Source: Thermoanaerobaculia bacterium
GTDB lineage: Bacteria; Acidobacteriota; Thermoanaerobaculia; Multivoradales; JAHEKO01
Reading direction: 5' to 3'
DNA: 64,000 bases
Assembly (NCBI GenBank): GCA_963781065.1
Contig: CAWAET010000002.1
Span: 146,462 to 210,461 of the forward strand
The translations under genes were made by a program, and so were the position numbers. The notes below the pieces were generated by a model, which saw only the letters and a program-made list of their open reading frames with translations, was not told the origin of the DNA and made no database searches. Shown here one piece after another: positions 13,039 through 61,993 of the stretch. Position 1 is the first letter of the stretch; every line of letters starts with the position of its first letter.

Positions 13039-16000
13039 GTGGAAACTCCAGAACAGAACGAAAGCGCCGGCTCTCCGCCGCGCAAACGGCGTGGCCCCGG
13101 CGCGGCAAGACCGGTGCCGCTGCACAAGCGCAGCAGCTCGCACTTCCGGCCGACCGTGCGCGAGCGCGGTCGACAGGACCTCGAGGCGGGACGGGTGACC
13201 CTGGAGGTCGACGACATGCGCAGCCGGGCGCGGGTCGAGGGCGCCGACCAGAAAACCTACGCGGTCGGGCTCGACTGGTCCCAGGTGGAAGCGAAACGGG
13301 CGCTGCATGCCTTCTGCGAATGCCGTCGGTTCGCGGCCGGCAAGCCCTGCGAGCACATCTGGGCGACCCTGCTGGCCCTGGCCGGTCACGGCAAGAGCAT
13401 CCAGCCGCCGGGACGCGACCGCGTCTCGCTGCGCAAGGACCGCGCCTCGGCCTGGGACGACCTGGGAATCTCGCCCGAGGCCCTGGCGCTGGCAGTAGCG
13501 GTCGAAGAGGCGCCGCCGCCGCCACGCTCGACCCAGCGCAGTCGGACCGCCGGGGCACGCCACTCCGCGACCTCCTGGCGGTCGCAGCTCGACTCACTGC
13601 GCGCCGAGGTCGGCCGGCTGTCGACGCCGGCGGTAGGCGCCCCCAAGACCGCCGACGCCAAGGTCGTCACCCGCTTTCTGGTCAACACCTCGGCCAGTCG
13701 CAATCAAGACGGCCTGGTTCTGGATATCTTCACTCGCAGGCTCGGCCCCGGCGGCCGGCCGGGCAAGCTCAAGCGCTCCGGCCTCGAGCCCGAAGCGCTG
13801 AGCCGGCTGCTGCTGCCCCAGGGCGCCGTCGCCGATACCAACGGCGACCTGCCGGTGATCACCGCCCTGGCTTCGGCGGCCAAGGCTCGGCAGGGGCGGG
13901 CTCGGCGCGGCCAGCAGAGCAACGGCAGGATCCAGCGCTTCCGCCTGCCGGATCGCCTGCACGAGGCGGTGCTCTCGAATCTGGCCGCGGCGGGCGTGCT
14001 CGGTTCCTGGGACGGCCGCCGGCTGAGCGAAGGCGCCGCCCTGAATTGGGACACCGGTCGGCCGTGGCGGCTCAGGCTGCGGCTGGCGGCGGCCGCCGGC
14101 GGCGCCAAGCTGGCCGGCAGCCTGGAGCGCAACGGCGACCGGGTGCCGCTGACTGCCCCGCTGCTGATCCTGCCCACCGCCAAGCCGGGCCGTTCGCTGG
14201 TCGTCTTCGCCGAGACCATCGGCGTCTTGCGGGCCGCCGAAAGCGAGCTGCACTGGATCACGCTGCTGCGCGACGCGCGAGAGATCGTCATCCCCGAGCG
14301 CGACCTCGAAGACGCGCTGACCGAGCTGCTCGAGATTCCCGACCTGCCCAGCCTCGAGATCCCCGATGAGCTGCGCGCCGCCGAGGAGACCTCGCCCCCG
14401 CGGCCGCGGCTGATGCTGACCAAGGACGCCAATTCGGTACTGCCCCACGCGCCGCTGCTGGCCGAGCTCTCGTTCCGCTACGGCGAGCTCGAGGTCAGCG
14501 CCCGGGACGCACGGCCGACGATCATCGAGTGGCCGGGCCCGACCCTGCTGCGGCGCGACATGGAGCGCGAGCACCAGCTGTTGATCCGCCTGCTCGAGGC
14601 CGGCGTCGAGCCGGTCCCCGGCAGCCAGGAGAACGAGATCGAGCTGTCGCCGCACAAGGTCCCGGCCGCCGCCGAGCTGCTGCTCATGGAGGGCTGGGAG
14701 GTGGAGATCAGCGGCGCCTCGCTGCGGGCGCCGGGCCCGCCGGCGCTGAGGATCGAGAGCGGCATCGACTGGTTCGAGCTCGCCGGCGGGCTGGAGTTCG
14801 CGGGCAACGAGGTCGAGCTCAAGAAGATCCTCGAGGCGGTCAAGAAGGGCCAGCGATTCGTCGCCCTCAAGGACGGCTCGCAGGGACTGCTGCCGTCGTC
14901 GTGGAGCGAGGCCTACGGCTCGCTGGCCCAGCTGGCCCAGGACACGAGCGAGGAAGGGCTGCGCTTCCTGCCGTCGCAGGCGATGCTGGTCGATGCCCTG
15001 CTGGTCGAGATGCCGCCGGCGGCGGTGGACAAGACGTTTGCCGAGCTGCGCGAGAAGCTGAGCTCGTTCGACCGCATCAAGCCGAAGAAGGAGCCGCGCG
15101 GCTTTGGCGGCACCCTGCGCGGCTACCAGCGCGAGGGACTCGGCTGGCTCGACTTCATGCGCCAGTTCGGCCTCGGCGGCGTGCTGGCCGACGACATGGG
15201 GCTGGGCAAGACGGTGCAGCTGCTGGCCCTGCTGCGCCTCAACCGCACGCCCTCGAAGACCACCGGCCTGCCCTCGCTGGTGGTGGTGCCGCGCAGCCTG
15301 CTCTACAACTGGCTCGAGGAGGCGGCGCGCTTCACCCCCAAGCTCAAGGTGGTCGAGTACAGCGGCCCCGGGCGCGAGGCCTTGCAGGGCAAGTTGGACA
15401 GCTACGACCTGGTGTTGACGACCTACGGCACGCTGCGCCGCGACATCGGGTATCTGGCGACGGTCGAGTTCGACACCGTCGTCCTCGACGAGGCGCAGGC
15501 GATCAAGAACCGCGACTCGCAGGCCGCCAAGGCCAGCCGGCTGCTCCAGGGCCGCCACCGGCTGGCGCTGACCGGCACGCCGATCGAGAACCATCTGGGC
15601 GAGCTCTGCTCGCTGTTCGAGTTCCTCAACCCGGGGCTGCTGGGCCGGCTGCCGACCCTCGAGATCCTCTCCAGCGGCCGCAAGGCGGGGGCCGACGAGC
15701 TGGCCAAGGTGGCCGCCGGCATCCGCCCCTTCATCCTGCGGCGGACCAAGGCACAGGTGCTGCCCGATCTGCCGGCGAAGACCGAGCAGGTGCTGCACTG
15801 CACCCTCAACCCGCGTCAGCGCGAGATCTACGACCAGCTCAAGGCCGGCTATCAAACCACCCTGCTGCGCCAGGCCGAGCAGGATGGCGTCGGCAAGTCG
15901 GCCATCCAGGTGCTCGAGGCGCTGCTGCGGCTGCGCCAGGTCGCCTGCCATCCGGGGCTGGTCAACGACGAGTGGGTCGAGGCCGGCAGCGCCAAGCTGG

Positions 16001-16494
16001 ACACCCTGTTCGACCTGGTCGACGAGGTGCTCGACGAGGGGCACAAGGTGCTGGTCTTCTCCCAGTTCACCAAGCTGCTCGGTCTGGTCCGGGAGCGGCT
16101 CGAGGAGCGCGGCATCGACTACGCCTACCTCGACGGCCAGACCCGCAACCGCGGTCGGGTGGTCGAGCGGTTCCAGACCGAGCCGAGCTGCAACCTCTTC
16201 CTGATCAGCCTCAAGGCCGGCGGCGTCGGCCTCAACCTGACCGCCGCCGACTACGTCTTCCTGCTCGACCCGTGGTGGAACCCGGCGGTCGAGGCCCAGG
16301 CGATCGACCGCACCCACCGCATCGGCCAGACCCAGCCGGTCTTCGCCTACCGGCTGATCGCCCAGGACACGGTCGAGGAGAAGATCCTCCAGCTGCAGAG
16401 CTCCAAGCGCAAGCTCGCCGACGCCATCCTCGGCGGCGAGGGCGGACCGCTCAAGGAGCTGACCGCCGACGATCTACGGATGCTGCTGAGCTAG
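13039..16494 (+). CDS. SWIM zinc-finger + SNF2/RapA-family helicase
   Basis: 1151-aa ORF with a SWIM motif CECRRFAAGKPCEHIWA near the N-terminus. SNF2 ATPase motifs: LADDMGLGKT, VLDEAQAIKN, LTGTPIENHL. Helicase C motifs: VLVFSQFT, LISLKAGGVGLNLT, DPWWNPAVEAQAIDRTHRIGQ. Confidence 0.85.
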   Translation: METPEQNESAGSPPRKRRGPGAARPVPLHKRSSSHFRPTVRERGRQDLEAGRVTLEVDDMRSRARVEGADQKTYAVGLDWSQVEAKRALHAFCECRRFAAGKPCEHIWATLLALAGHGKSIQPPGRDRVSLRKDRASAWDDLGISPEALALAVAVEEAPPPPRSTQRSRTAGARHSATSWRSQLDSLRAEVGRLSTPAVGAPKTADAKVVTRFLVNTSASRNQDGLVLDIFTRRLGPGGRPGKLKRSGLEPEALSRLLLPQGAVADTNGDLPVITALASAAKARQGRARRGQQSNGRIQRFRLPDRLHEAVLSNLAAAGVLGSWDGRRLSEGAALNWDTGRPWRLRLRLAAAAGGAKLAGSLERNGDRVPLTAPLLILPTAKPGRSLVVFAETIGVLRAAESELHWITLLRDAREIVIPERDLEDALTELLEIPDLPSLEIPDELRAAEETSPPRPRLMLTKDANSVLPHAPLLAELSFRYGELEVSARDARPTIIEWPGPTLLRRDMEREHQLLIRLLEAGVEPVPGSQENEIELSPHKVPAAAELLLMEGWEVEISGASLRAPGPPALRIESGIDWFELAGGLEFAGNEVELKKILEAVKKGQRFVALKDGSQGLLPSSWSEAYGSLAQLAQDTSEEGLRFLPSQAMLVDALLVEMPPAAVDKTFAELREKLSSFDRIKPKKEPRGFGGTLRGYQREGLGWLDFMRQFGLGGVLADDMGLGKTVQLLALLRLNRTPSKTTGLPSLVVVPRSLLYNWLEEAARFTPKLKVVEYSGPGREALQGKLDSYDLVLTTYGTLRRDIGYLATVEFDTVVLDEAQAIKNRDSQAAKASRLLQGRHRLALTGTPIENHLGELCSLFEFLNPGLLGRLPTLEILSSGRKAGADELAKVAAGIRPFILRRTKAQVLPDLPAKTEQVLHCTLNPRQREIYDQLKAGYQTTLLRQAEQDGVGKSAIQVLEALLRLRQVACHPGLVNDEWVEAGSAKLDTLFDLVDEVLDEGHKVLVFSQFTKLLGLVRERLEERGIDYAYLDGQTRNRGRVVERFQTEPSCNLFLISLKAGGVGLNLTAADYVFLLDPWWNPAVEAQAIDRTHRIGQTQPVFAYRLIAQDTVEEKILQLQSSKRKLADAILGGEGGPLKELTADDLRMLLS

Positions 16495-16631: not shown

Positions 16632-19589
16632 CTACTCCACCTGGAACCTCCAGGTGATCCGACCGACCTCGCGACCGCGGTAGAGCTGCCGGATCGCCAG
16701 GCTGTCGCCTGGCCGGGTGGCGTCGTCGACGTGGAAGGCGCAGTCGAACCGCGCCCCGGCGAGCAGCCGGAGCCGCCCGATCGCCACCCGCGGCTGCTTC
16801 GGGGGCACCAGCCGCACCTGCTCCGGCCTGCCGGTATTCTCCGGCGTCCGCCAGAGACGGCTACGACCGATCTGCGAGGCCAGCGCCGCCTGCGCGTCGA
16901 GCGCCAGGGTAGCCGGGGGCGCCAGGTTGCGGACGATCTCGAAGTCGAAGGTCCGCGCCCGGTCCGGAGTGCCGGTGATCAGGAAGGACAGCTCAGCCTT
17001 CCGGCCTGCCGGGACGCGGTGAACGTTGCAGAAGGCGACACCGGCATGCCAGTCGAGAAACGACAGATAGCGCCGCCAGTCGAAGTAGGGCCAGCGATGC
17101 GGCGGCACCGCCAGGCCCGGTGGGGTCCCCTCCTCGTCGCGCCGATCCTGCACCGTGGCGACAAAGCCGCAACGCCCCTCAGCGGGCGCCTCGAGGGCGA
17201 ATGCTCCGGACCAGACCGGAGATTCGGCCACCGCCACGGCGCCGCCGCCGGGCGCGGCCGGTAGCTCGCTCCACAGGTCGGGTGTCAGCAGGGTCGCGAC
17301 CGGGCACCCGTAGAGCTTGACGTCCGCCTGCTCGGCTCGCTGCAGGCCGCGGTTGTGGAGCCGCACGTGGACCGAGTAGGCCGCTCCGGGCGTCATCGGC
17401 GCCAGTTCGGCGGCACCCTCCTGCAGCGGGTCCGTCGGGCTCTCGCCGACGGCCAGCGCCACGATGTCGGGGCTGCAACAGGTCCGCCGCGCCACCGGCA
17501 CGGCGCCCTCGTCTTCCAGGCAGTCGCGGATGCCGAGATCCGACACCAGGCCCAACCCCTGGCGCAGGACGCGCCGGAGGTCGGGCATGACGCCGATCCG
17601 GCCGCGCACCCCGCGGCCCTGGCGGGTGCCGTATGTCGGATCGGCGAGCAGCCGCCGCATCTCCGATGGCGAGAGCCGGGTCCCGGCCAGCCGCTCGCGC
17701 ACTCCCTGGACCAGCAGGGCGGCGCCGGCGATGATCGGCGCCGCGCCGCTGGTGCCGCCGAAATAGGCCGTGTAGGCCCGTCTCGCGGCCACCTCCTCGG
17801 CCACCTCCGGATCTTCCAGATAGCCGTTCATGTCGCCGTAACCGGCGGTGGCCACGCGGTCGCCGTGGGCAAAACAGTCGATGCGTGAGCCATGGTTCGA
17901 GCCCACCCCCACCCGGCCCGACAGGCGATCGTGGGGCCGCGCCGAGCGCGCCGCGGCGACCATCAGGGCGCCCGATTCGCGGAAGTGCGGATGGCGGCGG
18001 TTCAGCACCCGCTCACCGCGCTCGTCGACATAGCGGTCGAGATCGGCGTTGCCGTTGCCCGCCGCCTCGATGACGATGATGCCATTGGCCACCGCCAGCC
18101 GGATGGCGTCACGGTCGGCCGGGTCGACCTCGGTGGGCAGGTAGCTGCGCTGCACCTCGAGCAGCAGCACGTCGCCAGGGTCCAGCCGATCGATGGCGTG
18201 GCGGATGCCGTTGGCCACGTTGCCGGAGGTCTGCTGGCCCTGGTCCCAGTGGGAGACCAGCTGTAGCCGATGGGTGCCCTTGCTGATGCCGCGCACGCCC
18301 TTGTCGTTGCCCCGCGTGGCGAGCAGCTCGGCCAGAACCGCCGTGCCGTGATGTCCCCGGTAGTCGCCGAAGTCGTGCCGGTTGTCACCGAAGACAAGAG
18401 CCGTGCCGAGGTCGACGTTCAGATCCTCGTGCGCCAGCCGGCCCGCCCCGTCCTCGAGCCAGCCCTGTTCGAGGTCCATGAAGCCGACGTCGAGCGCGCC
18501 GTCGGGCGTGTAGCGCCAGGCCCAACGGACGCCGAGCCCGGCTGGAGCCCGGTCCAGGTGTTCCTGCACCCCGAGGTAGGTGTCGTCCGGCGAGGGGTCG
18601 GTGGCGGCGAGCTCGCGATAGGCGAGATCGACCTCGGGCAGTTCGTTGAGCTGGCGGACGAATCGCCGGGCCACCTGACGATAGGAGGGCTCCCAGCCGT
18701 TGACGCGACGTTCGCCCGGCGCCGCCTCGATCTCGACGTGCAGGAAGCGCGCATCGATCCGCCAGTACGAGGACAGCGGGTTGAGGGGCGGCAGCGTGGA
18801 CCGCGCCGCCCGCCGCTCGAGCTCGTAGGTCGTGGGCCTGGGCTTGGGCCGCTCCTCTCGAGCTCCCTTTCGCCTGCCCTTTCTGCGCTCCCTTGGCTGG
18901 TCCTCGTCCCGCGCGCACTCTCTGCCGCGGTCCTCTGGCGGGTCCTCGTCCGGCGCGCGCTCTCTGCCGCGGTCCACCACGTCCACCAGCCGGCCGGTCA
19001 TGTCGGCCGAGATCCCGTGCCGCCGCAACACCCGCCGCAGCCCGACGAGCTCCAGCCGCCTGGCCGCCTCGCGCAGATCGTCCACCTCGTCCGCCAGGCT
19101 CAGGTCCAGCTCGGGCGACAGACGGACGACAATCCTACCGCTGTGCTGGATCGGGAAGCTTCTGCTCCGGCGGCGCGGCGAACACCGCTGACGACTCGCC
19201 CCCTGCCGCCGTCCGGCAAGGCGCCCACACAGCCGCCGCAGAAGTCGCTGGGTTCCTGGATCGTCAAGATCGCCAATACCCAGCGGCCGGGGGTCGTCGG
19301 GATCACCGATGTCAATCGGCCGCGGGTCGTCGGGATCACCGATGTCAATCGGCCGCGGGTCATCGGGATCGCCGATGTCGATCGGCCGCGGGTCGTCGGG
19401 ATCACCGATGTCGATCGGCCGCGGGTCGTCGGGATCGCCGATGTCAATCGGCCGCGGGTCGTCGGGATCGCCGATGTCAATCGGCCGTGGGTCGTCGGGA
19501 TCGCCGATGTCAATCGGCCGTGGGTCGTCGGGATCGCCGATGTCAATCGGCCGTGGGTCGGACAGGAAGAACGGTCCTTCTCGAGTCAT
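16632..19589 (-). CDS. S8 (subtilisin-family) serine peptidase with N-terminal 11-aa tandem repeats, no signal peptide
   Basis: Catalytic motifs FMDLEQGW (Asp), HHGTAVLAEL (His), GGTSGAAPIIAG (Ser). ATG at 19589 is preceded by CAAGAGGGAGAGGCAG and overlaps the stop of the upstream CHAT gene (ATGA). N-terminus MTREGPFFLS is followed by 8 x DPRPIDIGDPD. Confidence 0.8.
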   Translation of the reverse strand: MTREGPFFLSDPRPIDIGDPDDPRPIDIGDPDDPRPIDIGDPDDPRPIDIGDPDDPRPIDIGDPDDPRPIDIGDPDDPRPIDIGDPDDPRPIDIGDPDDPRPLGIGDLDDPGTQRLLRRLCGRLAGRRQGASRQRCSPRRRSRSFPIQHSGRIVVRLSPELDLSLADEVDDLREAARRLELVGLRRVLRRHGISADMTGRLVDVVDRGRERAPDEDPPEDRGRECARDEDQPRERRKGRRKGAREERPKPRPTTYELERRAARSTLPPLNPLSSYWRIDARFLHVEIEAAPGERRVNGWEPSYRQVARRFVRQLNELPEVDLAYRELAATDPSPDDTYLGVQEHLDRAPAGLGVRWAWRYTPDGALDVGFMDLEQGWLEDGAGRLAHEDLNVDLGTALVFGDNRHDFGDYRGHHGTAVLAELLATRGNDKGVRGISKGTHRLQLVSHWDQGQQTSGNVANGIRHAIDRLDPGDVLLLEVQRSYLPTEVDPADRDAIRLAVANGIIVIEAAGNGNADLDRYVDERGERVLNRRHPHFRESGALMVAAARSARPHDRLSGRVGVGSNHGSRIDCFAHGDRVATAGYGDMNGYLEDPEVAEEVAARRAYTAYFGGTSGAAPIIAGAALLVQGVRERLAGTRLSPSEMRRLLADPTYGTRQGRGVRGRIGVMPDLRRVLRQGLGLVSDLGIRDCLEDEGAVPVARRTCCSPDIVALAVGESPTDPLQEGAAELAPMTPGAAYSVHVRLHNRGLQRAEQADVKLYGCPVATLLTPDLWSELPAAPGGGAVAVAESPVWSGAFALEAPAEGRCGFVATVQDRRDEEGTPPGLAVPPHRWPYFDWRRYLSFLDWHAGVAFCNVHRVPAGRKAELSFLITGTPDRARTFDFEIVRNLAPPATLALDAQAALASQIGRSRLWRTPENTGRPEQVRLVPPKQPRVAIGRLRLLAGARFDCAFHVDDATRPGDSLAIRQLYRGREVGRITWRFQVE
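19257..19560 (-). repeat. 33-bp tandem repeat, about 9 units (8 near-identical plus 1 degenerate), in frame inside the S8 gene
   Basis: Unit GGTCGTCGGGATCRCCGATGTCRATCGGCCGYG on the plus strand, repeated head to tail. It encodes PRPIDIGDPDD x8 plus PRPLGIGDLDD. Confidence 0.95.
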
Positions 19590-22500
19590 CTGCCTCTCCC
19601 TCTTGCGTTGGGTGGATGCGAAACCGGCCTCACCTCGGAGGCTCGCGTGGCTTCCACGGGCTCTTGGATAGACGCGGCTGGGCGCCACTCACCCTGGATT
19701 ATGAAACCGGACCAGAAGTACGGGTGCGGGCGACTCGCTCGCAGAGTCAGCTGTGCCTTGCGGAGTGCCGCCGCTGGCGCGAGTCCTTCGACGAGCAAAC
19801 CGCGATAGAAGAGCTTCATCAGATCTGCCGTGGCACGGTCGCGCACCTTCCAGAGGCTGACGATCACCCGCGGCGAGCCGGCGTACATGAAGCCGCGGGG
19901 CAAACCGACCAACCCCTCGCCCCGCACTTGCTTGCCGAGCGCGGTCTCGCACGCGCTCAGTACCACCAGGTCAGCCTGCAGCTCGAGGTTGTAGACCTCG
20001 TGCGCCCTGAGGAGCCCGTCGACCGGCTCGCCCCGACGATCCACCTGCGACAGGACGATGCCGGAGAGGGCCGGCTGCTCGGCGTTCAACACGGCATGGG
20101 TCGCGAAATGAACGATCCGATAGCCCGCGAGCCGGCCCGAAACAACGTTCTGCTTGGTCGCGTCGAAGTCGAGCGCTCGGAAGGCCCCCTCCGACGGCAC
20201 CAGGCTGAGGATCGCCTCGGCTTCCGCTCGTGACTGCGGCAGCCGCGGCCAGGGGCCGGAGTCGATCTGCCCGTCTCTCGCCGGCGAAACGGCCGGAGCC
20301 CTGACCAGGCTCTGCGACCCGCGGCTTTCCCCGACGACCCTGCTGTCGTCGGGACCGAACACCGGATCCGCCAGAATGGCGATCGTCCCTCTGGGCCTCT
20401 GCCGGCCGTCGTCTCGTCGGAGCGCCGCGAGCGTCGAGGCGGAGGGAAGGTGGACGATCTCGTGGCTGACGACGAGCGGCTCGGCGGTCAGGCAGCGGTC
20501 CAGGGAAGACGGCTCCGGCAAGGCCCCGAACGGCAGGTACTCCAGGGCGCCGTCGGCGACGATGAGCAGCCGCTTGCTCCCCAGCCGGCTCGCCGCCGGC
20601 TGCAGGAGCTGGCGGCTCAACTCGCACAGCAGGGCCGTGGCGCGCCCTTCGCTCTGCCGCCGAGGGCCTTCCTGTAGCAGCTCGCGGATCGCCCGCACTT
20701 TGCTCTCGATCTCCAAGGCCGGCGCCAGCTCGAAGGCGGCCAACTCCTCGGTGGAGAGAAGCCACAAGTAGCTCCGCTCGCGAGCCAGCCGATACTCGAG
20801 CAGCACGGTGTCAGCGTCCAGCAGGCTGTCCTGGATCTCTCCCACGGTCAGCGGCGGCGGTTGGGTCAGGGCGGCATAGCGAGGACTCTGGCGTCGGATC
20901 GCGGCCCGGACCGCATCAAGCCGTTCCAAGGCAACTCCGACCGCCTCTGCCGCGGCCGCTCTCTGCGTCTCGCCAGCCGCCTCATCCTCCATCACCTCGA
21001 CGCTACGGTTGAGCACCCGCTGCATGGACCGCTCCTGCTCGAGAAGCTGCGGCGCAGCGCTGTCCCGGATCTCGGCCCCGGCCTCGCTGAGCAGGTCCAG
21101 CAGTGATCGCGCCCGCGCGCGCTCGTTCACCTGCAACGCGAGCGCGGCGTGCCCGGCCAGGGGGTCGGTCCGGTCAAGCTCCATCAACAGGTCGATGTAG
21201 AAGTCGAAGTACTGCTGCACGGCGGCAAAGAAGGAAACACGCAGCTCCTCGCTGAACGGCTTCAGCCGCAACCCCTCGATGATCTCGAGAGCCCGTCTGC
21301 CCGCCGCGAGCGCCGGTTGCAGTTCGCCCCGCTGACGCTCTGCGGTCGCCACCCCCAGGAGCGCTCGCGCCTTGCCGAGGGGGTCCCCGATCACGTTGTA
21401 GATCTCCAGGGCCGCGCGGTAGTAGTCGAGAGCTTCCTGGCCCCGGCCGAGCCGACTGTGAAGATCGCCGAGGTTGGTGAGCAGAGCGGCCTTCGACCTC
21501 GGACTGTCGACGGACTCGAGCAGTTCGAGAGCCTCCAGGAAGCTCGAGCGTGCCTGCTCGACGTCACCGCTGGCGAGCAGAACCGAGCCGATCTCCCGCA
21601 AGGCGACGGCCTCGCCCCTCCGGTCCTTCCGCTGGCGGCGGAGAGCCAGGGCATCGCGCAGAGTGTGGAGGGCGAGCTCGGTGTCGCCGGACTCGAAGGC
21701 CAGCTGGCCAATCTGGCTCAAAGAGGAAGCCTGCCAGCTCTCCTCACCCAGCACCGCGAACTCGCGCTCGGCCATTCGCAGCTGCTCGAGGGCCGCTTCT
21801 CGCCGGCCCTGCTGGCGGTAGAGCGTGCCGAGATTGTGCAGCTGGAAAGCCCGGTAGCGACGATCCTCTGGCCGATCGAGCCGCGCCAGAGACCCCTCGA
21901 AGCTGTCCAACGCCTTCTGCGTCTCTCCCTGGATCTTGTAGATGTTGGCCAGCGCTCCGAGCGAGATCCCCTCGCCGCGACGATCGCCCAACTCCCGATT
22001 CAGCGCCAGCACTCGGGTGTTGTAGCCGATCGCCCGCTCCATCTCTCCCAGCTCGAAGCAGTCCGTCGCCAGATGGCCCAAGCTGACCGCGAGGAACCTC
22101 GGCGCGGCTTGGCGCTCGAAGGCCGCCACCGCCTGCTCGTGGAAACTGGCCGCCCTGGCCCAGTCGCCGAGATGGCGATACGTGCTGCCGATCCGGTCCA
22201 GGCTCTCCGCCTGCCAGAACTCGTCCCCGGCACGGCGCCACCGTTCCAGCGAGTCCTGGAACGGGATCAGGGCCTCGCGGTATCTCCCGTCCCAGTACAG
22301 CTGCTCGCCCTCGTGGAACTTCCGCGCCGCCTGCGCTCTGAGCTGCTCGCCAACGCCGGCTCGGCGCAGAGAGACCAGGGAGAGCACGTAGTCGCCACCG
22401 GCATCCTCGCTCTCCCACGCCTGCAACCGAAGCCGATGGGTACCGCTTTGCACGGCGACCCCGAGCATGGGCTCGACGCCGAGATCGGCGATTGGCAGGT

Positions 22501-22852
22501 CCATCTCGAGTAACAGGCCGTCGTCCGGCCCGAACAGGCTCAGGCCGACGTCGATGCCCCTCTGTTCCACCTCGAGGTCGAAGTAGTCGCCGGCTTCGAG
22601 AACCAGTAGATAGTCGTGGACCTCGCCCGGCAAGACGCGGCCTTCGATCGGCTCACCAAGCGAGAGCCGCGGCAGCCCTTCGTTCCCGGCGCTCTCCGGC
22701 GTCGACACAGCGATGGCCTCCGCCTTGGCGCCTGCCGGCTCAACGCTCTCCTCCCGCGCCGCGGGGCAGGCGCCCAGCACCAGGGCGCCCGCAAGCGCCG
22801 CCGCCCGCCACCGTCGCGCGACGCAACTCCGGCTCAGCATTCGTCTCCACAC
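19586..22852 (-). CDS. TPR-repeat CHAT-domain (caspase-fold, clan CD) protease, probable lipoprotein
   Basis: N-terminal signal with lipobox LVLGAC. A PPC-like beta-sandwich segment (GEVHDYLLVLEAGDYFDLEV...YVLSL) is followed by a long TPR array. The C-terminal CHAT has His motif IVHFATHA and Cys motif LVVLSACETALG, ending in PYFWSGFIIQGEW. The alternative start ATG 22840 is equally plausible. Confidence 0.85.
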   Translation of the reverse strand: MWRRMLSRSCVARRWRAAALAGALVLGACPAAREESVEPAGAKAEAIAVSTPESAGNEGLPRLSLGEPIEGRVLPGEVHDYLLVLEAGDYFDLEVEQRGIDVGLSLFGPDDGLLLEMDLPIADLGVEPMLGVAVQSGTHRLRLQAWESEDAGGDYVLSLVSLRRAGVGEQLRAQAARKFHEGEQLYWDGRYREALIPFQDSLERWRRAGDEFWQAESLDRIGSTYRHLGDWARAASFHEQAVAAFERQAAPRFLAVSLGHLATDCFELGEMERAIGYNTRVLALNRELGDRRGEGISLGALANIYKIQGETQKALDSFEGSLARLDRPEDRRYRAFQLHNLGTLYRQQGRREAALEQLRMAEREFAVLGEESWQASSLSQIGQLAFESGDTELALHTLRDALALRRQRKDRRGEAVALREIGSVLLASGDVEQARSSFLEALELLESVDSPRSKAALLTNLGDLHSRLGRGQEALDYYRAALEIYNVIGDPLGKARALLGVATAERQRGELQPALAAGRRALEIIEGLRLKPFSEELRVSFFAAVQQYFDFYIDLLMELDRTDPLAGHAALALQVNERARARSLLDLLSEAGAEIRDSAAPQLLEQERSMQRVLNRSVEVMEDEAAGETQRAAAAEAVGVALERLDAVRAAIRRQSPRYAALTQPPPLTVGEIQDSLLDADTVLLEYRLARERSYLWLLSTEELAAFELAPALEIESKVRAIRELLQEGPRRQSEGRATALLCELSRQLLQPAASRLGSKRLLIVADGALEYLPFGALPEPSSLDRCLTAEPLVVSHEIVHLPSASTLAALRRDDGRQRPRGTIAILADPVFGPDDSRVVGESRGSQSLVRAPAVSPARDGQIDSGPWPRLPQSRAEAEAILSLVPSEGAFRALDFDATKQNVVSGRLAGYRIVHFATHAVLNAEQPALSGIVLSQVDRRGEPVDGLLRAHEVYNLELQADLVVLSACETALGKQVRGEGLVGLPRGFMYAGSPRVIVSLWKVRDRATADLMKLFYRGLLVEGLAPAAALRKAQLTLRASRPHPYFWSGFIIQGEWRPAASIQEPVEATRASEVRPVSHPPNARGRGR

Positions 22853-23123
22853 TGCTCGCTCGAGCCCGAACCGCCGTCAGCGGCCGCTTCGATTCGTGGA
22901 TCGGTCACCGAGTTCTCCTCGAGACATTGACGCGGACTGAAATCGGAACCTTAAAGCCAGTCTCTCACAAGCACTGGCGACAGGCAGAGCGGTCAGCGCG
23001 ATCTCCGAGCCTCACCGTACTCCTGAAGCCTGGCCCTCTTCGATGAAGAGGCCACGGTAGGCCGAGCCGCACCAGGCCTCGCCCCCTCCCGGCTCCCGGC
23101 GGGGAGCCGGCGCCCCCTCCTCC

Positions 23124-24935
23124 CTACTCCTCCGCCACCGGCAGCCCGAGCGAGCGCATCAGGGCCAGGGCATTGCCGCGGGTGACGGTACCGGGCCGCA
23201 GCCGGTAGTCGAAGGCCATGCGACCCTGCTCGAGGTGGTCCTCGAAGTGGACGTTGACCGCCGCCGGCGCCAGCTCGTCGGCGATCTCGGCCAGCGCCAG
23301 GTCGTGGGTGGTGACCAGGCCGATCGCCCCCGCATCCAGCAGCCCGCGGATCACCCCGGCGGCACCGAGCCGCCGGTCGTGCGAGTTGGTGCCGTGCAGG
23401 ATCTCGTCGAGCAGGAACAGGGTCGGCCCGGCCGCCGCCAGCTCACCGATCTGACTGAGGCGCTGCAGCTCGGCGTAGAACCGCGAGACCCCCTCGAGCA
23501 GCGAGTCGTGCAGCTGGATGCTGGCACCCACCTGCAGCGGGGTCAGCCGCAACCGGCTCGCCGGCACCGGTGCACCGGCGAGCGCGAGGACCGCCGCGAC
23601 GCCCACCGTGCGCAGCAGCGTGCTCTTGCCCGACATGTTGGACCCGCTGACGAGCAGGAGCCGCGGCCCATCACCGGTCGCGGAGCCGCCCAGAACGACG
23701 GTGTTGGCCACCCTCGCCCCGACCGGCAGCAACGGATGGGCGAGGTCGCCACCCTCGAGCCGCGGCGGCCCGTCAAGGATCTCCGGCAAGACGTACTCCG
23801 GGTTCTCGTAGGCAAACGTCGCCAACGAACTGAGCGCCTCGAACTCGCCGATCGCCCGCAGCCAGCCGCCCACGGCCGCGCCGTGCCGCGCCCGCCAGCG
23901 CTCGGCGGCGAAGGCGAATTGGGTGCCCAGGAGCAGCAGCGCCGCGATCGGCTGGAAGAAGAGGTTGCCCCGCGAGTCGTTCCACTCGATCAACCGGGCC
24001 AGCTCGAGGAGCCGCGCGCTCGGCCGTTGCCGGGCGTCGGCGGACCGGCGCTGCAGGTCGCGCAGCCGGGCGCTAGTAAAGCTCTGCGATTCGAGCCGGC
24101 TCAGCAGCCCCGCCAGGAAGCGCAGCTCTCCAGCCGGCGCGGCGAGGCCGGCCAGCACTTCCTTGACGCGCGCCCTCACCGCCAGCGCCAGCAGCCCGGC
24201 GACGGCGAGCCCCGGCAGAACGAAGCGGCCGGGGAGCGGCCCCGACAGCCAGGCGGCGAGCGCGGCTAGATTGATCGCTCCGAGCACGGCCGCGACGACC
24301 GGCCCGGCCGCCCCGCTGAGCCGCGCTGGCGCGCGGCCCCACCTATCGAGATCCTCGCCCCGGACCTCGGGCGACAGGTCGGCCGCCAGGATCGTCAGCT
24401 CCTCGCGCAGATCGAGCCGCTCACGAAGCTCGGTGGCGGCCTGCTGACGGCCTGCGATCCGCTGCGGCGTGGCGGGAGCCGACAACCACGCGGCCAGCGT
24501 CTGCCGCCCGGGAAGACTGTGCGCCGTGCAGAGCAGCGCATAGACCGAGCCGCGGCCGAACAGATCGAGATCCTCGGCATAGGGATGCTCCTCATCGCGG
24601 TACTCGGCGCCCTCGTCGAGCGGATCGGACCAATCTCCGGCCAGCCGGGCCAGGCCCCGCCGGTAGAAGGCGGCGGCCAGCCTTCGCCGGGCCAGCGCCG
24701 AGACGACCGGACCGTGCGCCGCCACCAGGGCGACGAACGCAGCCACCGGCAGGGCGAGCCAGGCCGGGTGCCATGTGCCATTGACCAGCACCGGCCACAC
24801 CATGGCGGCGGCGACCAGGAAGACCGCCACGCGAGCGTTGCCCAGCCGCCGGTCCAACCGGTCCAGCCGGGCGATCTCGGCCTCGCGTTGCCCGAGCCGG
24901 CGCGGGTACTCCTCCTGGGCGGCGGCTTGCGGCAC
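23124..24935 (-). CDS. MutS-related ABC-type ATPase (MutS domain V only) with N-terminal transmembrane segments
   Basis: 603-aa ORF with several hydrophobic helices in the first ~260 aa. The C-terminal MutS ATPase has motifs SGSNMSGKSTLLR, LLDEILHGTNSHDR, TTHDL. No mismatch-binding or Smr domain is evident. Confidence 0.75.
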   Translation of the reverse strand: MPQAAAQEEYPRRLGQREAEIARLDRLDRRLGNARVAVFLVAAAMVWPVLVNGTWHPAWLALPVAAFVALVAAHGPVVSALARRRLAAAFYRRGLARLAGDWSDPLDEGAEYRDEEHPYAEDLDLFGRGSVYALLCTAHSLPGRQTLAAWLSAPATPQRIAGRQQAATELRERLDLREELTILAADLSPEVRGEDLDRWGRAPARLSGAAGPVVAAVLGAINLAALAAWLSGPLPGRFVLPGLAVAGLLALAVRARVKEVLAGLAAPAGELRFLAGLLSRLESQSFTSARLRDLQRRSADARQRPSARLLELARLIEWNDSRGNLFFQPIAALLLLGTQFAFAAERWRARHGAAVGGWLRAIGEFEALSSLATFAYENPEYVLPEILDGPPRLEGGDLAHPLLPVGARVANTVVLGGSATGDGPRLLLVSGSNMSGKSTLLRTVGVAAVLALAGAPVPASRLRLTPLQVGASIQLHDSLLEGVSRFYAELQRLSQIGELAAAGPTLFLLDEILHGTNSHDRRLGAAGVIRGLLDAGAIGLVTTHDLALAEIADELAPAAVNVHFEDHLEQGRMAFDYRLRPGTVTRGNALALMRSLGLPVAEE

Positions 24936-35970: not shown

Positions 35971-36161
35971 GCCTCCTAAGACCAACGCGCTCAAGGGTTT
36001 CCCTGCGGCCACCAGAATCCGGCCGAGCGTTCGTTCGGTCTGTCGCCAGACGAGATCGCCGCCTCCCGCCGCGGCCAGGAGGGCCCCGTCCGCTCTTCCG
36101 AATCGAGCCTCTCGCATGCCCGGCACGCGATTCACCCGCGATTTGCTATTGTCGAGACGCC

Positions 36162-36539
36162 GTGGGAGTTCACCGCAACGGTGGCATCGTTGGGCGCATC
36201 ACCGGCGCCCTGCTGCTCGCTCAGCTGCCCTTCGTGCTCGCCGGCAGCCTTGCGCTTCACCACGAGCACCCCGCCGGCCAGATCGCGACACCGGTCTTCG
36301 CCGACGCCGCCCACGGCGGGCTGGCCGCCCACTGGGAGGCCGCCGAGACGGTCCGGCTGCGCCAGTGCGCCGCCTGTCTGTTGCCGGCACAGCCCCTCGA
36401 GCCGCCGGCGACGGACAGCGTCGGTCATCTCCAAGCCGAGGCCGAGCGGGCGCCGCTTCCGGCATCCACCGGGCTGCCGACTTCGGGCGCCGGCCGATCC
36501 CAACGCTCCCGCGCTCCTCCGCCTTCCGGGTTGGCCTGA
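36162..36539 (+). CDS. Possible small membrane protein with His-rich and CxxC motifs (DUF2946-like?), weak call
   Basis: GTG 36162 opens VGVHRNGGIVGRITGALLLAQLPFVLAGSLALHHEHPAG...AAHWEA...RQCAACLLPAQP. It has one hydrophobic helix followed by HHEH and CAAC. It lies upstream of a metal-uptake cluster. Composition is otherwise shadow-like. Confidence 0.25.
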   Translation: MGVHRNGGIVGRITGALLLAQLPFVLAGSLALHHEHPAGQIATPVFADAAHGGLAAHWEAAETVRLRQCAACLLPAQPLEPPATDSVGHLQAEAERAPLPASTGLPTSGAGRSQRSRAPPPSGLA

Positions 36540-36612
36540 CGCCGTCGCGGGGGCACCCTGCGACGCATGCCGCCGCCAGGCGGCGCAGATCGACAACGGA
36601 AGGGAGTGGGAT

Positions 36613-50632: not shown

Positions 50633-51022
50633 ATGAAGATTCTCGTAGCCGACGACGAGCCCCAGGTGCTCGACGTCGTCGCCCGCATCCTCGACGGCGC
50701 CGGCCACCATGTCCTGACCGCGATCGACGGCAACGAGGCCCTACGGCGGGTCTACGAGACCCACCCCGACCTCGTCCTGCTGGACATCCGCATGCCGCAC
50801 AAGGACGGAACGACCGTGGCGCAGCAGATGCGCGACGACCCGCGCACGCGCGAGATCCCGGTGGTCTTCCTCACCGGCCTGATCCGCGCCTCCGAGGCCG
50901 ATCACCGCGGCGGCCACCACCTCTTCCTGGCCAAGCCTTTCGTGGCTCGCGAACTGCTCGAGATCGTCGAGCGCGCGACCGCCGATAGCGACGACGCACC
51001 GGCGCCCCCGCCGGCTGGCTGA
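50633..51022 (+). CDS. Stand-alone response regulator receiver protein
   Basis: ATG 50633 follows GGGGAGGGAGGGA. MKILVADDEP...DLVLLDIRMPHKDG...IPVVFLTG...FLAKPF. Confidence 0.8.
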   Translation: MKILVADDEPQVLDVVARILDGAGHHVLTAIDGNEALRRVYETHPDLVLLDIRMPHKDGTTVAQQMRDDPRTREIPVVFLTGLIRASEADHRGGHHLFLAKPFVARELLEIVERATADSDDAPAPPPAG

Positions 51023-51138
51023 CCGCCCGCGCGGCCGGCTCGCGGGCCGGCCCGGCGCGGGATCGATGGCGCCGTTTGACTTGGCGGCCCGGGCGCGTCA
51101 GCATTCCACCACTCCTCCCCGGAGAAAGAGAGTGGAAG

Positions 51139-51699: not shown

Positions 51700-51745
51700 C
51701 GAAACCGACCGCGGAACGCCCAACCTAGCAGGGAGGGACCATTAA

Positions 51746-52627: not shown

Positions 52628-52652
52628 GCCCGCTCGGGTAGACTCGGCCTCC

Positions 52653-58882: not shown

Positions 58883-59008
58883 AATTGCGGCGACTGAGCT
58901 TTCTACCGCTTTTTCGGCGGCGCCGTGCTACACTTCGCCCGCCGGACGGCCCCGACCCGGTCGCTCGGCACCGGGAGTCGCACCGGCCCCGCGGGTGAGT
59001 CCAGCGAG

Positions 59009-61993
<2,985 letters not shown>

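What the first reader, a model, noticed from the sequence alone, without database searches (positions are those of the whole stretch)
16632..22852. Translationally coupled TPR-CHAT caspase-like lipoprotein and signal-less S8 subtilase: candidate two-protease module
Seen in the sequence:
- On the minus strand, the 1088-aa ORF has a PPC-like beta-sandwich, a long TPR array and a C-terminal CHAT domain with an intact His/Cys dyad (IVHFATHA, VVLSACETA).
- Its TGA stop overlaps the ATG of the next gene (ATGA at 19586-19589).
- A strong ribosome-binding site (CAAGAGGGAGAGGCAG-ATG) for the second gene lies inside the last codons of the first.
- The second gene is a 985-aa S8 subtilase with an intact Asp/His/Ser triad (FMDLEQGW, HHGTAV, GGTSGAAP) and no signal peptide.
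- Its N-terminus is unusual: 8 identical DPRPIDIGDPD units, a highly charged Arg/Glu/Asp segment containing the internal duplication DRGRERAPDEDPPE / DRGRECARDEDQPRE, and a long unassigned region before the catalytic core. A long unassigned C-terminal region follows the core.

Established knowledge: CHAT domains are clan CD caspase-fold proteases. TPR-CHAT and SAVED-CHAT proteins act as switchable proteases in CRISPR type III-associated proteolytic cascades.

Inference: obligatory co-translation of two different protease classes suggests a zymogen-activation, protease-cascade or conflict module rather than two unrelated housekeeping enzymes. The Asp/Pro-rich repeat N-terminus could be a pro-region or a substrate-like bait for the partner. 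I do not recognise this pair as a described system.

Caveat: the CHAT protein carries a lipoprotein-type signal (LVLGAC) and the subtilase carries none, so the two may not share a compartment.
Basis: partly seen in the sequence, partly recalled or inferred. Interest (0 to 1): 0.75.

Follow-up and report, generated by a model that had tools for sequence, protein, structure and literature searches.

The report
ECF-linked CHAT lipoprotein plus subtilase pair
The two overlapping protease genes are real and recur together in several bacterial phyla, but they are the leftover half of a sigma / anti-sigma signalling operon, and the two enzymes are predicted to sit on opposite sides of the cell membrane rather than to activate each other directly.

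Summary
It comprises a 1088-aa lipoprotein-type beta-sandwich/TPR/CHAT protein, a 985-aa signal-less S8 subtilase, an ATGA overlap, eight identical DPRPIDIGDPD units and intact catalytic residues.

The pairing is not chance. CHAT genes flank relatives of this S8 in about 21 of 160 fetched loci, in three architectures across at least four phyla, and an ECF-type sigma gene leads each architecture in the loci I checked.

In the window's own S8 clade the operon is ECF sigma, zf-HC2 anti-sigma, TPR-CHAT lipoprotein, S8. One relative (L173) has all four genes in the same MutS_V...SNF2 chromosomal slot, so the window holds a reduced two-gene remnant.

In another architecture the CHAT protein is fused to an anti-sigma domain and a membrane helix, like Myxococcus DdvA, which is a top structural match.

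Across all types CHAT is exported and S8 lacks a signal peptide. The ATGA overlap is specific to the window among the eight loci compared; seven relatives have 60-123 nt spacers.

Best reading: a split DdvA-like envelope-sensing protease plus a co-expressed cytoplasmic zymogen-type subtilase. Direct CHAT-to-S8 activation is not excluded, because the S8's hypervariable acidic repeats look like TPR ligands.

Verdict: new variant of a known kind, moderate interest.

The parts
19586..22852 (-). Gene for a 1088-aa lipoprotein-type beta-sandwich / 9xTPR / helical linker / CHAT (clan CD) protease. An alternative ATG start lies at 22840.
   Evidence: ORF and translation. Pfam CHAT 8.2e-69 and TPR_12 7.8e-51. 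AlphaFold pLDDT 86.6. Foldseek matches separase, DdvA (8rw5/8rot) and Csx29.
22766..22852 (-). Signal peptide ending in the lipobox LVLGA-C (Cys29).
   Evidence: Sequence. Lipobox-type N-termini are conserved in most close orthologues. The hydrophobic stretch is too short for a membrane helix (inference).
22361..22678 (-). N-terminal 8-stranded beta-sandwich (PPC-like), residues ~59-164.
   Evidence: AlphaFold strands at model residues 65-160. No Pfam hit in the window protein. PF04151 hits occur in paralogues.
21269..22354 (-). TPR superhelix of about 9 repeats, residues ~167-528.
   Evidence: Pfam TPR families. 18 paired helices in the model. Resembles LGN/Pins and kinesin-light-chain TPRs.
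19691..20809 (-). CHAT protease domain. The catalytic His919 codon is at 20096-20098 and the Cys968 codon at 19949-19951 (1088-aa numbering).
   Evidence: Pfam residues 741-1054. His is invariant in 100 homologues and Cys is present in 99 of 100.
19589..19681 (-). 31-codon C-terminal tail of the CHAT ORF, disordered. It is a lineage-specific read-through of the former intergenic spacer.
   Evidence: Seven relatives stop 0-8 codons after QGEW/QGDW and have 60-123 nt spacers. pLDDT <50 at the C-terminus.
19586..19603 (-). Shine-Dalgarno sequence AGAGGGAGAGG (19593-19603) and the ATGA stop/start overlap (19586-19589).
   Evidence: Sequence. Relatives have GGAGG-type sites in the same place within a spacer.
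16632..19589 (-). Gene for a 985-aa signal-less S8 subtilase.
   Evidence: ORF and translation. Pfam S8 1.9e-10. Family of ~800-1000 aa proteins aligned over 96-99% of the query. AlphaFold pLDDT 79.6.
19284..19560 (-). Tandem repeat array: 8 identical DPRPIDIGDPD units plus 1 degenerate unit. Predicted disordered.
   Evidence: TRF 33-nt period x8.4 copies, 96% matches. pLDDT <50 for residues 1-143. Analogous arrays with different unit sequences occur in 18 of 110 family members.
19149..19262 (-). Arg-rich segment with two Cys (residues ~110-147).
   Evidence: Sequence. A Cys pair in a basic context at this position recurs across the family. Function unexplained.
18600..19145 (-). N-terminal domain (residues 149-330) with beta-alpha-beta...beta-alpha-beta topology, resembling a subtilase propeptide (I9-like). 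It is interrupted by a disordered charged insert (residues 201-253) that contains the 42-nt duplication at 18894-18975.
   Evidence: AlphaFold secondary structure. TRF. Conserved motifs YSGxIIVRLS, SYWRID and EVDLAYRE. Pfam finds nothing. The I9-like reading is an inference from topology.
17550..18572 (-). S8 catalytic domain. Codons: Asp372 at 18474-18476, His414 at 18348-18350, Asn512 at 18054-18056, Ser614 at 17748-17750.
   Evidence: All four residues are invariant in 110 of 110 sequences. Foldseek and PDB profile hits are to subtilisins, including intracellular subtilisins and pro-Tk-subtilisin.
16635..17537 (-). C-terminal beta-sandwich region (residues ~685-985), specific to this S8 family.
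   Evidence: High-confidence all-beta model. No Pfam hit. Conserved across the family. A search with this region alone was uninformative.
22959..22969 (-). Promoter-like motif TGTGAGAGACT, two mismatches from TGTGAGACAAT.
   Evidence: TGTGAGACAAT (<=1 mismatch) lies upstream of the sigma gene in L173, L102 and L008/L012, and upstream of CHAT in the sigma-less L006. There are 12 hits in 2.1 Mb overall. Weak evidence: the standard promoter scan finds nothing here.

Best explanation
The pair is the distal half of a conserved ECF-sigma-linked two-protease operon: ECF sigma, zf-HC2 anti-sigma, TPR-CHAT lipoprotein, signal-less S8. The window's lineage has lost the adjacent sigma and anti-sigma genes.

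The CHAT protein is exported and lipid-anchored, and it is a split version of the DdvA-type TPR-CHAT anti-sigma factor. Its most likely role is a periplasmic sensor-protease that clips the small periplasmic domain or linker of the cognate anti-sigma, that is, site-1-like cleavage.

The S8 is a cytoplasmic enzyme that keeps a propeptide-like N-domain. It is co-expressed and acts on the other side of the membrane in the same pathway, either removing the released anti-sigma/sigma fragment or serving as the proteolytic output.

Shown:
- the conserved gene linkage;
- the ancestral four-gene state at the same chromosomal site;
- the opposite export signals;
- intact catalytic residues;
- the DdvA/separase/craspase-type fold.

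Inferred:
- what each protease cleaves;
- that the remnant pair still answers to a sigma / anti-sigma pair encoded elsewhere.
For: - Four-gene operon in different flanking contexts. Sigma, zf-HC2 anti-sigma, TPR-CHAT and S8 occur in that order in L008, L009 and L010, in L019, L054 and L065, and in L102.
- Same chromosomal slot. L173 has all four genes between MutS_V and a convergent SNF2 gene, the same slot as in the window. Its proteins are orthologous by HMM: sigma 2.5e-89, anti-sigma 4.9e-62.
- Phylogeny. In the S8 tree the window group (window, L004, L006, L007) nests inside the sigma-linked clade.
- Architecture B. A weak ECF-like sigma is followed by a ~1200-aa protein with an anti-sigma N-domain, a membrane helix, TPR and CHAT, and then by S8 (L024, L095, L099). 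L128 has the same fused protein, with an H-x3-C-x2-C motif, followed by S8; its upstream sigma was not examined.
- Architecture C (Chitinophagaceae). In L052, L055 and L129 the order is ECF sigma, TPR protein, small ORF, S8, signal-peptide TPR-CHAT. L051, L149 and L152 show the same S8-then-CHAT order; their upstream genes were not examined.
- Structure. Foldseek of the CHAT model returns separase, DdvA (8rw5, 8rot) and Csx29.
- Export signals. Most close CHAT orthologues have a lipobox, while only 1 of 110 S8 family members has a hydrophobic N-terminus.
- Literature. DdvA is a periplasmic TPR-CHAT anti-sigma proposed to self-cleave before RseP acts, and its operon ends in a C25 peptidase (PMC11506125). 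ECF54 is noted to have CHAT and subtilase genes in its context (PMC8999054).
Against: - No sigma or anti-sigma gene sits next to the pair in the window. The only ECF / zf-HC2 pair in the 64 kb (50989-52627) is not orthologous (E about 1e-4 and 1e-9, against 1e-38 or better for the sigma and 4e-8 to 1e-132 for the anti-sigma in the sigma-linked loci) and has its own partner.
- The pair has been kept intact in at least four sigma-less loci (window, L004, L006, L007). It may therefore work without an adjacent sigma.
- No substrate has been identified.
- The putative operon promoter motif looks sigma-70-like rather than ECF-like.
- Nothing explains the clade-specific acidic repeat array if S8 never meets the TPR protein.
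- One family member (P0090) carries a C-terminal OmpA-like, normally periplasmic, domain without a signal peptide. This hints that some S8s may leave the cytoplasm.
- Localisation rests on sequence signals only.
Confidence: 0.5

Rival explanations
1. Direct protease cascade in one compartment. The S8's N-terminal array of acidic-hydrophobic units docks in the concave channel of the partner's TPR superhelix. The CHAT domain then removes the N-terminal region or propeptide-like domain and so activates the subtilase. This requires S8 to reach the periplasm by a non-classical route.
For: - The repeat arrays are confined to the ~900-1000 aa members of the family: 18 of 110 carry one.
- Every repeat-bearing S8 whose neighbourhood was examined is CHAT-linked.
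- Unit sequences differ between lineages (DPRPIDIGDPD, DPRPEDWHDP, PEDFPLEPDD, DPEDEEGFSELE, DPGYEYVVPPPE and others), but nearly all keep acidic flanks around a central W, F, Y, M, I or L residue.
- The CHAT protein's TPRs most resemble LGN/Pins and kinesin light chain. From my own knowledge, these bind extended acidic or W-/Y-acidic peptides.
- There is precedent for a CHAT protease activating a second protease: SAVED-CHAT cleaves and activates PCaspase (bioRxiv 10.1101/2023.06.23.546230).
- P0090 fuses an OmpA-like domain to a signal-less S8.
Against: - Opposite export signals are conserved in all three architectures.
- There is no conserved twin-arginine motif in the CHAT signal peptides that could support hitch-hiker export.
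- CHAT-linked S8s of architectures B and C lack the repeats.
- No basic or other residue is conserved in the units that could serve as a P1 site, and Asp-Pro is a poor caspase-type site (established knowledge).
- The net charge of the TPR region does not differ between S8-linked orthologues and unlinked paralogues.
- No S8-CHAT fusion protein appeared among the top 120 hits of either search.
Confidence: 0.2
2. An ECF-controlled conflict or defence effector. The S8 is a toxic intracellular protease (abortive-infection type) held inactive by its N-terminal regions, and the envelope CHAT sensor detects phage or competitor attack, as proposed for the DdvS/DdvA regulon.
For: - DdvA/DdvS control a CBASS-CRISPR defence island and respond to phage (PMC11506125).
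- CHAT and other protease-sigma links recur in defence systems.
- Fast-evolving repeats are typical of conflict genes (inference).
- L173 has a TIR_2 gene beside the sigma gene, and L008 has an integrase nearby.
Against: - No PADLOC model hits S8, and the CHAT protein hits only a generic TPR model.
- The window is a core chromosomal region (LepA, HemN, infC, NadE, PBP1A), and the slot is stably syntenic among relatives.
- The window has no CRISPR or CBASS genes.
- The SNF2/SWIM neighbour matches only the helicase cores of DpdE/ZorD and is absent from the distant loci.
Confidence: 0.15
3. Two unrelated degradative or housekeeping proteases that are neighbours only through inherited synteny, with the overlap an accident of a compact high-GC genome.
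For: - Among the closest relatives, the whole MutS_V...SNF2 neighbourhood is conserved, not just the pair.
- The ATGA overlap is lineage-specific.
- Many S8 family members (Lysobacter, Kangiella, Actinomycetota, Bacteroidota, Nitrosospira) stand alone.
- Broader TPR-CHAT paralogues sit in unrelated contexts.
Against: - The adjacency recurs with entirely different flanking genes and in both gene orders. It is seen in Acidobacteriota, Bacteroidota, Planctomycetota and a Lysobacterales MAG. About 21 of 160 S8 loci have a CHAT gene as the nearest or next-nearest neighbour, against 3 CHAT hits elsewhere in about 2 Mb of flanks.
- L129 carries two S8-CHAT pairs in tandem.
Confidence: 0.05

Closest known systems
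DdvS/DdvA of Myxococcus xanthus: an ECF sigma plus a transmembrane anti-sigma with a periplasmic TPR-CHAT domain (PDB 8rot, 8rw5; PMC11506125)
   Same: - Periplasm-facing TPR-CHAT with a His/Cys dyad, and DdvA is a top Foldseek match.
- In relatives of the window the CHAT gene follows an ECF sigma and a zinc-finger anti-sigma. In architecture B it is fused to the anti-sigma exactly as in DdvA.
- The DdvS-DdvA operon also ends in a second peptidase gene, of the C25 type.
   Different: - Here the CHAT protein is a separate lipoprotein with an extra N-terminal beta-sandwich, not fused to the anti-sigma.
- The sequence relationship is too distant for phmmer against the PDB.
- The downstream peptidase is a ~1000-aa S8, not a C25.
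- There is no CBASS/CRISPR regulon nearby.
- In the window itself the sigma and anti-sigma genes are missing.
ECF54-type genomic context (Actinobacteria; Huang et al. 2015 and Casas-Pastor et al. 2021, as summarised in PMC8999054)
   Same: Genes for subtilase and CHAT-domain proteins are conserved next to an ECF sigma, and proteolytic control of the sigma has been proposed.
   Different: - ECF54 is described as lacking an anti-sigma and as also having a carboxypeptidase. The operon here has a zf-HC2 anti-sigma and no carboxypeptidase.
- It belongs to a different phylum.
- The ECF group of the sigma factors found here was not determined.
- The primary description (PMC4518836) could not be read.
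Cytoplasmic CHAT protease cascades of CRISPR type III systems: Craspase (Csx29/Csx30/CASP-sigma) and SAVED-CHAT acting on PCaspase
   Same: - TPR-CHAT fold.
- The concept of a CHAT protease acting on a second protease and on sigma-related factors.
   Different: - Those systems are cytoplasmic and are switched by RNA or cyclic oligoadenylate.
- Here there is no Cas7-11, Cmr, SAVED or CRISPR array, the CHAT protein is exported, and the partner is a serine protease.
Subtilases with retained propeptides and intracellular subtilisins (ISP of Bacillus; pro-Tk-subtilisin)
   Same: - S8 catalytic core with Asp/His/Ser and the oxyanion Asn.
- No signal peptide, as in ISPs.
- An N-terminal domain with propeptide-like topology.
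- These are among the best structural matches.
   Different: - ISPs are ~320 aa with an ~18-residue N-terminal extension. This family is 800-1000 aa.
- It has a 180-aa N-domain, a 300-aa C-terminal beta-sandwich region and, in the CHAT/sigma-linked clade, a disordered tandem-repeat head.

Membership tests
Peptidase family S8 (subtilases) | Asp-His-Ser catalytic triad in that order, plus the oxyanion-hole Asn, on a subtilisin fold | tested here: met
   Pfam PF00082 scores 41 bits against a 21.8-bit cut-off. D372, H414, N512 and S614 are invariant in 110 of 110 homologues. Foldseek E 1e-11 to subtilisins.
CHAT / clan CD caspase-like peptidases | CHAT domain with a His...Cys catalytic dyad | tested here: met
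   Pfam PF12770 8.2e-69. His is invariant in 100 homologues and Cys is present in 99 of 100. Foldseek matches separase, DdvA and Csx29.
Bacterial lipoproteins | N-terminal signal peptide ending in a lipobox with an invariant Cys | tested here: met
   The N-terminus MLSRSCVARRWRAAALAGALVLGA-C has a positive n-region, a ~13-residue h-region and then L-G-A-C. Equivalent ...AGC...GAC and ...AAC boxes occur in most close orthologues. No dedicated predictor (SignalP/LipoP) was available.
DdvA-type TPR-CHAT anti-sigma factors | Cytoplasmic zinc-binding anti-sigma domain and a membrane helix fused N-terminally to the periplasmic TPR-CHAT | tested here: not met
   The window protein starts with a lipoprotein signal and a beta-sandwich and has no anti-sigma domain. 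The fused form does exist next to S8 relatives in L024, L095, L099 and L128.
DdvA-type TPR-CHAT anti-sigma factors | Cognate ECF sigma gene encoded immediately upstream | tested here: not met
   The gene upstream in the window is MutS_V, 272 nt away. The feature is met in relatives L008-L010, L019, L054, L065, L102 and L173.
DdvA-type TPR-CHAT anti-sigma factors | Periplasm-facing separase/craspase-type TPR-CHAT fold | tested here: met
   Export signal. Foldseek gives DdvA 8rw5 at E 1.8e-15 and 8rot at 7.5e-15, although TM-scores are low (0.22-0.27) over the whole chain.
ECF sigma / anti-sigma regulated-proteolysis modules | The protease cleaves the anti-sigma and releases the sigma | not testable with these tools
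   This needs biochemistry or genetics. Only gene linkage is shown here.
ECF54 genomic context | Sigma factor belongs to group ECF54, there is no anti-sigma, and carboxypeptidase, subtilase and CHAT genes are neighbours | tested here: not met
   Relatives have a zf-HC2 anti-sigma. No carboxypeptidase was seen. The ECF group of the sigma was not assigned.
Type III-E Craspase / type III-B SAVED-CHAT systems | Association with Cas7-11 or Cmr effectors, a SAVED domain, and a CRISPR array | tested here: not met
   Neighbours are SNF2/SWIM, MutS_V, an aminotransferase and infC. There are no PADLOC hits beyond generic TPR, no Rfam CRISPR family in the window and no SAVED domain.
Intracellular subtilisin proteases (ISP) | ~320-aa signal-less subtilisin with a short N-terminal inhibitory extension | tested here: not met
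   The absence of a signal peptide is shared. The architecture differs: 985 aa, a 180-aa N-domain and a 300-aa C-terminal region. The similarity is confined to the catalytic core.
Gasdermin-protease cell-death operons | A gasdermin gene adjacent to a caspase-like or subtilase protease | tested here: not met
   No gasdermin-like gene appears among the neighbours in the window or in related loci.

The most novel reading that the evidence does not exclude
The hypervariable N-terminal array on the S8 is a multivalent ligand or pseudo-substrate for the TPR channel of its own CHAT partner. The array has 5-12 copies of a 10-12-residue acidic unit around a central aromatic or hydrophobic residue, homogenised within each protein and different between lineages. 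Under this reading the operon encodes an ECF-controlled caspase-like-to-subtilase activation cascade in the bacterial envelope, with S8 leaving the cytoplasm by an unrecognised signal-less route.
Probability: 0.15. Interest if true: 0.8.

Novelty: new variant of a known kind. Interest (0 to 1): 0.55.

Why it matters
Only one TPR-CHAT anti-sigma factor (DdvA) has been studied, and its authors reported such proteins only in Myxococcota and one Comamonas species.

The loci gathered here show that CHAT-based ECF modules also exist in Acidobacteriota, Bacteroidota and probably Planctomycetota and Gammaproteobacteria. They occur in split and fused forms, and they recurrently carry a dedicated signal-less subtilase.

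This gives three things:
- a natural 'split DdvA', in which sensor-protease and anti-sigma are separate polypeptides and so easier to dissect;
- a testable candidate for a second, cytoplasmic protease step in ECF signalling;
- a fast-evolving repeat array whose correlation with CHAT linkage needs an explanation.

For this particular window the practical message is more modest. The pair is a remnant of that operon, not a free-standing new system.

Tried and rejected
- Exact look-up of the window's S8 to identify the source contig: not on record. Cluster look-up gave no names.
- CRISPR- or defence-system reading: rejected. PADLOC gave no S8 hit and only a generic TPR hit for CHAT. The SNF2 neighbour matches only helicase cores and is not conserved with the pair. 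There are no Rfam hits.
- Tat hitch-hiker export of S8 with CHAT: rejected, because twin arginines are not conserved in the orthologues' signal peptides.
- Electrostatic complementarity between the TPR region and the acidic repeats: no difference in TPR net charge between S8-linked orthologues and other paralogues. The test is crude and uninformative.
- An ECF-type promoter shared upstream of the sigma genes: none found. Instead an extended -10-like TGTGAGACAAT motif turned up, and the generic promoter/terminator scan found nothing.
- The window's own ECF / zf-HC2 pair at 50989-52627 as the missing regulator: rejected as non-orthologous, and it has its own LVIVD partner.
- Search with the S8 C-terminal region alone: only family fragments.
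- Pfam on the isolated N-domain, C-domain and CHAT beta-sandwich: no hits.
- Metagenome scan: returned mostly distant family members rather than the close clade, though it revealed architectures B and C.
- Supplementary data of the ECF classification paper and the Huang 2015 paper: not held.

Full report
**1. Observation**

The window has 72% G+C. On the minus strand, ORF 19586-22852 encodes 1088 aa and ORF 16632-19589 encodes 985 aa from its ATG. The TGA of the first gene overlaps the ATG of the second (ATGA, 19586-19589), and AGAGGGAGAGG lies just upstream.

Pfam gives CHAT (8.2e-69, residues 741-1054) and multiple TPR families for the first protein. It gives Peptidase_S8 (1.9e-10, residues 407-650) for the second.

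The S8 N-terminus holds eight identical DPRPIDIGDPD units plus one degenerate unit (33-nt period, 8.4 copies, 96% matches). The DRGRE... duplication is a 42-nt unit repeated twice.

In alignments of 110 S8 homologues and 100 CHAT homologues the catalytic residues hold. S8 Asp372, His414, Asn512 and Ser614 are invariant, and so is the CHAT His. The CHAT Cys is present in 99 of 100 sequences, the exception being a gap.

**2. The overlap is not a conserved feature**

In seven relatives the CHAT ORF ends 0-8 codons after a conserved QGEW/QGDW motif. A 60-123 nt spacer with its own GGAGG-type site follows before the S8 ATG. In the window the ORF runs 31 further codons through that spacer, and this tail is disordered in the model. 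Co-transcription is likely. 'Obligatory co-translation' is a peculiarity of this lineage.

**3. What the two proteins are**

*CHAT protein.* AlphaFold (pLDDT 86.6) gives the following domains, in model numbering, which starts at the ATG (add 4 for the 1088-aa ORF):
- a disordered signal and linker;
- an 8-stranded beta-sandwich (~55-160);
- nine TPRs (163-524);
- long linker helices (531-660);
- the CHAT domain (678-1050).

Foldseek against the PDB returns separase, the Myxococcus anti-sigma DdvA (8rw5, 8rot) and craspase Csx29. The TPR part matches LGN/Pins. The N-terminus is a lipoprotein signal (LVLGA-C), and most close orthologues have an equivalent lipobox.

*S8 protein.* AlphaFold (pLDDT 79.6) gives:
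- a disordered head (1-143: repeats plus an Arg/Cys-rich stretch);
- an N-domain (149-330) with beta-alpha-beta...beta-alpha-beta topology, split by a disordered charged insert;
- the catalytic domain (~340-680);
- about 300 residues of beta-sandwich.

Only the catalytic core resembles solved structures, namely subtilisins, intracellular subtilisins and pro-Tk-subtilisin. The protein belongs to a large family of ~800-aa proteins aligned over 96-99% of the query. The family is found in Gammaproteobacteria, Gemmatimonadota, Acidobacteriota, Actinomycetota and Bacteroidota. Only 1 of 110 members has a hydrophobic N-terminus.

**4. Is the pairing meaningful?**

Distant family members stand alone: Lysobacter, Kangiella and many others. 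The closest relatives (57-79% identity) keep the pair, but they also keep the whole MutS_V...SNF2 neighbourhood, so on their own they prove little.

The decisive loci are more distant. L008, L009 and L010 (S8 about 41% identical, CHAT 44-48% identical) have entirely different flanks. All three carry ECF sigma, zf-HC2 anti-sigma, TPR-CHAT and S8 in that order.

I ran local HMM scans of 160 further loci, taken from one genome scan and one metagenome scan. They add L019, L054, L065 and L102 with the same four genes, and L035 (Lysobacterales) with sigma, anti-sigma and CHAT divergent from S8.

Two other architectures emerged.

- **Architecture B** (L024, L095, L099, L128). A ~1200-aa protein carries an anti-sigma-like N-domain (NF052375 4e-7 in L095; an H-x3-C-x2-C motif in L128), a membrane helix, TPRs and CHAT. 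This is the DdvA architecture. In L024, L095 and L099 it is preceded by a weak ECF-like sigma (TIGR02937, below its cut-off); the genes upstream in L128 were not examined. In all four it is followed by an ~800-aa or shorter S8.
- **Architecture C** (Chitinophagaceae). In L052, L055 and L129 the order is ECF sigma, a 245-aa TPR protein, a small ORF, a ~480-aa S8 and then a signal-peptide TPR-CHAT. L129 has two S8-CHAT pairs in tandem. L051, L149 and L152 show the same S8-then-CHAT order, but their upstream genes were not examined.

About 21 of the 160 loci have a CHAT gene as the nearest or next-nearest neighbour of S8. Only three CHAT hits occur elsewhere in about 2 Mb of flanking sequence. 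This comparison is rough and is not corrected for phylogeny.

Broader TPR-CHAT paralogues (37-40% identical) are not next to S8 or sigma genes.

**5. The window holds a remnant**

In a neighbour-joining tree of the S8 proteins, the window group (window, L004, L006, L007) nests within the sigma-linked clade.

L173 settles the matter. It has MutS_V on one side and a convergent SNF2 gene on the other, exactly as in the window. Between them lie an orthologous sigma (HMM 2.5e-89), an anti-sigma (4.9e-62, HLAACRTC), the lipoprotein CHAT and a repeat-bearing S8. The window, L004, L006 and L007 have therefore lost the two regulatory genes. L004 and L006 carry an ALGX gene in their place.

A motif, TGTGAGACAAT, lies upstream of sigma in L173, L102 and L008, and upstream of CHAT in the sigma-less L006. 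The window has a version with two mismatches. This suggests the operon promoter was retained, but the evidence is weak.

The window's own ECF / zf-HC2 pair at 50989-52627 is unrelated.

**6. Mechanism**

The literature provides three relevant precedents.
- DdvA is a transmembrane anti-sigma whose periplasmic TPR-CHAT is proposed to cut its own linker so that RseP can release DdvS. Its operon ends with an uncharacterised C25 peptidase (PMC11506125).
- For ECF54, conserved carboxypeptidase, subtilase and CHAT neighbours have prompted the idea of proteolytic control (PMC8999054).
- Cytoplasmic CHAT cascades exist, for example SAVED-CHAT activating PCaspase.

The most economical reading of the anatomy is a split DdvA. 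The lipoprotein TPR-CHAT senses something in the envelope and acts on the separate anti-sigma. The signal-less S8 keeps a propeptide-like domain and works in the cytoplasm within the same pathway.

The export dichotomy holds in all three architectures. I take this as the strongest argument against simple CHAT-to-S8 zymogen activation.

The substrates are inferred, not shown.

**7. What remains odd**

In the family alignment, 18 of 110 S8s have N-terminal tandem repeats. These are the ~900-1000 aa members, and every one whose neighbourhood was examined is CHAT-linked. The repeats have a period of 10-12 residues and 4-12 copies. They are homogenised within a protein but differ between lineages. 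Nearly all are acidic and Pro-rich around a central W, F, Y, M, I or L.

Such units look like short linear motifs of the kind bound by LGN- or kinesin-light-chain-type TPRs (my own knowledge). These are also the best matches for the partner's TPRs. This keeps a direct-interaction model alive, at a probability of about 0.15-0.2.

Two other oddities:
- P0090 fuses an OmpA-like domain to a signal-less S8.
- A Cys pair in a basic context precedes the N-domain throughout the family.

A crude charge test gave no support for TPR-repeat complementarity.

**8. Novelty and verdict**

I found no paper describing this operon. Its components and its logic are nevertheless known kinds: ECF-linked regulated proteolysis, the DdvA-type TPR-CHAT, and the ECF54 context note. 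I therefore rate it a new variant of a known kind.

The window itself carries a reduced version. Interest is moderate (0.55). It would be higher if the repeat array proves to be the CHAT partner's ligand.

Noticed in passing
window 19589-19681 (-): The CHAT ORF has absorbed the former CHAT-S8 intergenic spacer as a 31-codon disordered tail. The relatives' stop codons lie 0-8 codons after QGEW.
   Followed up: yes
window 19149-19262 (-); equivalent positions in L004, L006, L009, L010, L018, L021, L054, L065, L099, L102: A pair or cluster of cysteines (often C-G), usually in an Arg-rich context, sits just before the S8 N-domain. It occurs across the whole family, whether or not the S8 is linked to CHAT. 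Its function is unexplained.
   Followed up: partly
P0090 (S8 family member, 902 aa): It carries a C-terminal OmpA-like peptidoglycan-binding domain but no N-terminal signal peptide. This is at odds with a purely cytoplasmic family.
   Followed up: partly
P0226 (1583 aa): A TPR-CHAT protein is fused to a Peptidase_C25 domain. The DdvS-DdvA operon also ends in a C25 peptidase, so 'CHAT plus a second peptidase' may be a wider theme.
   Followed up: no
L129 2303-11441 (+): Two consecutive S8-CHAT gene pairs lie downstream of an ECF sigma and a TPR protein in a Chitinophagaceae-like metagenome contig.
   Followed up: partly
L173 1747-2550 (-): A TIR_2-domain gene lies between MutS_V and the sigma gene of the four-gene operon. 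It is absent from the window.
   Followed up: no
window 22959-22969 (-); L173 5219, L102 3807, L008 5120, L006 4642: An extended -10-like motif, TGTGAGACAAT, lies upstream of the operon's first gene whether that gene is sigma or CHAT. The window copy has two mismatches.
   Followed up: partly
window 50989-54293 (+): A separate ECF sigma, zf-HC2 anti-sigma and LVIVD/beta-propeller gene trio, not orthologous to the module's regulators.
   Followed up: partly
window 58898-61993 (+): A 1031-aa protein combines GGDEF, GAF and a sigma-54 activator AAA+ domain.
   Followed up: no
window 13039-16494 (+): An SNF2 helicase with SWIM and SNF2_assoc domains lies convergent with S8. It gives strong PADLOC hits to DpdE/ZorD helicase cores, but no other Dpd or Zorya genes are nearby. 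It is syntenic only in close relatives.
   Followed up: partly
window 24609-24703 (-) and 36816-36893 (-): ARAGORN calls tRNA-Pyl and tRNA-Ala. The first lies inside the MutS_V coding region and the second inside ORF 35980-37890, on the opposite strand. Rfam finds no tRNA. Both are probably false positives.
   Followed up: partly
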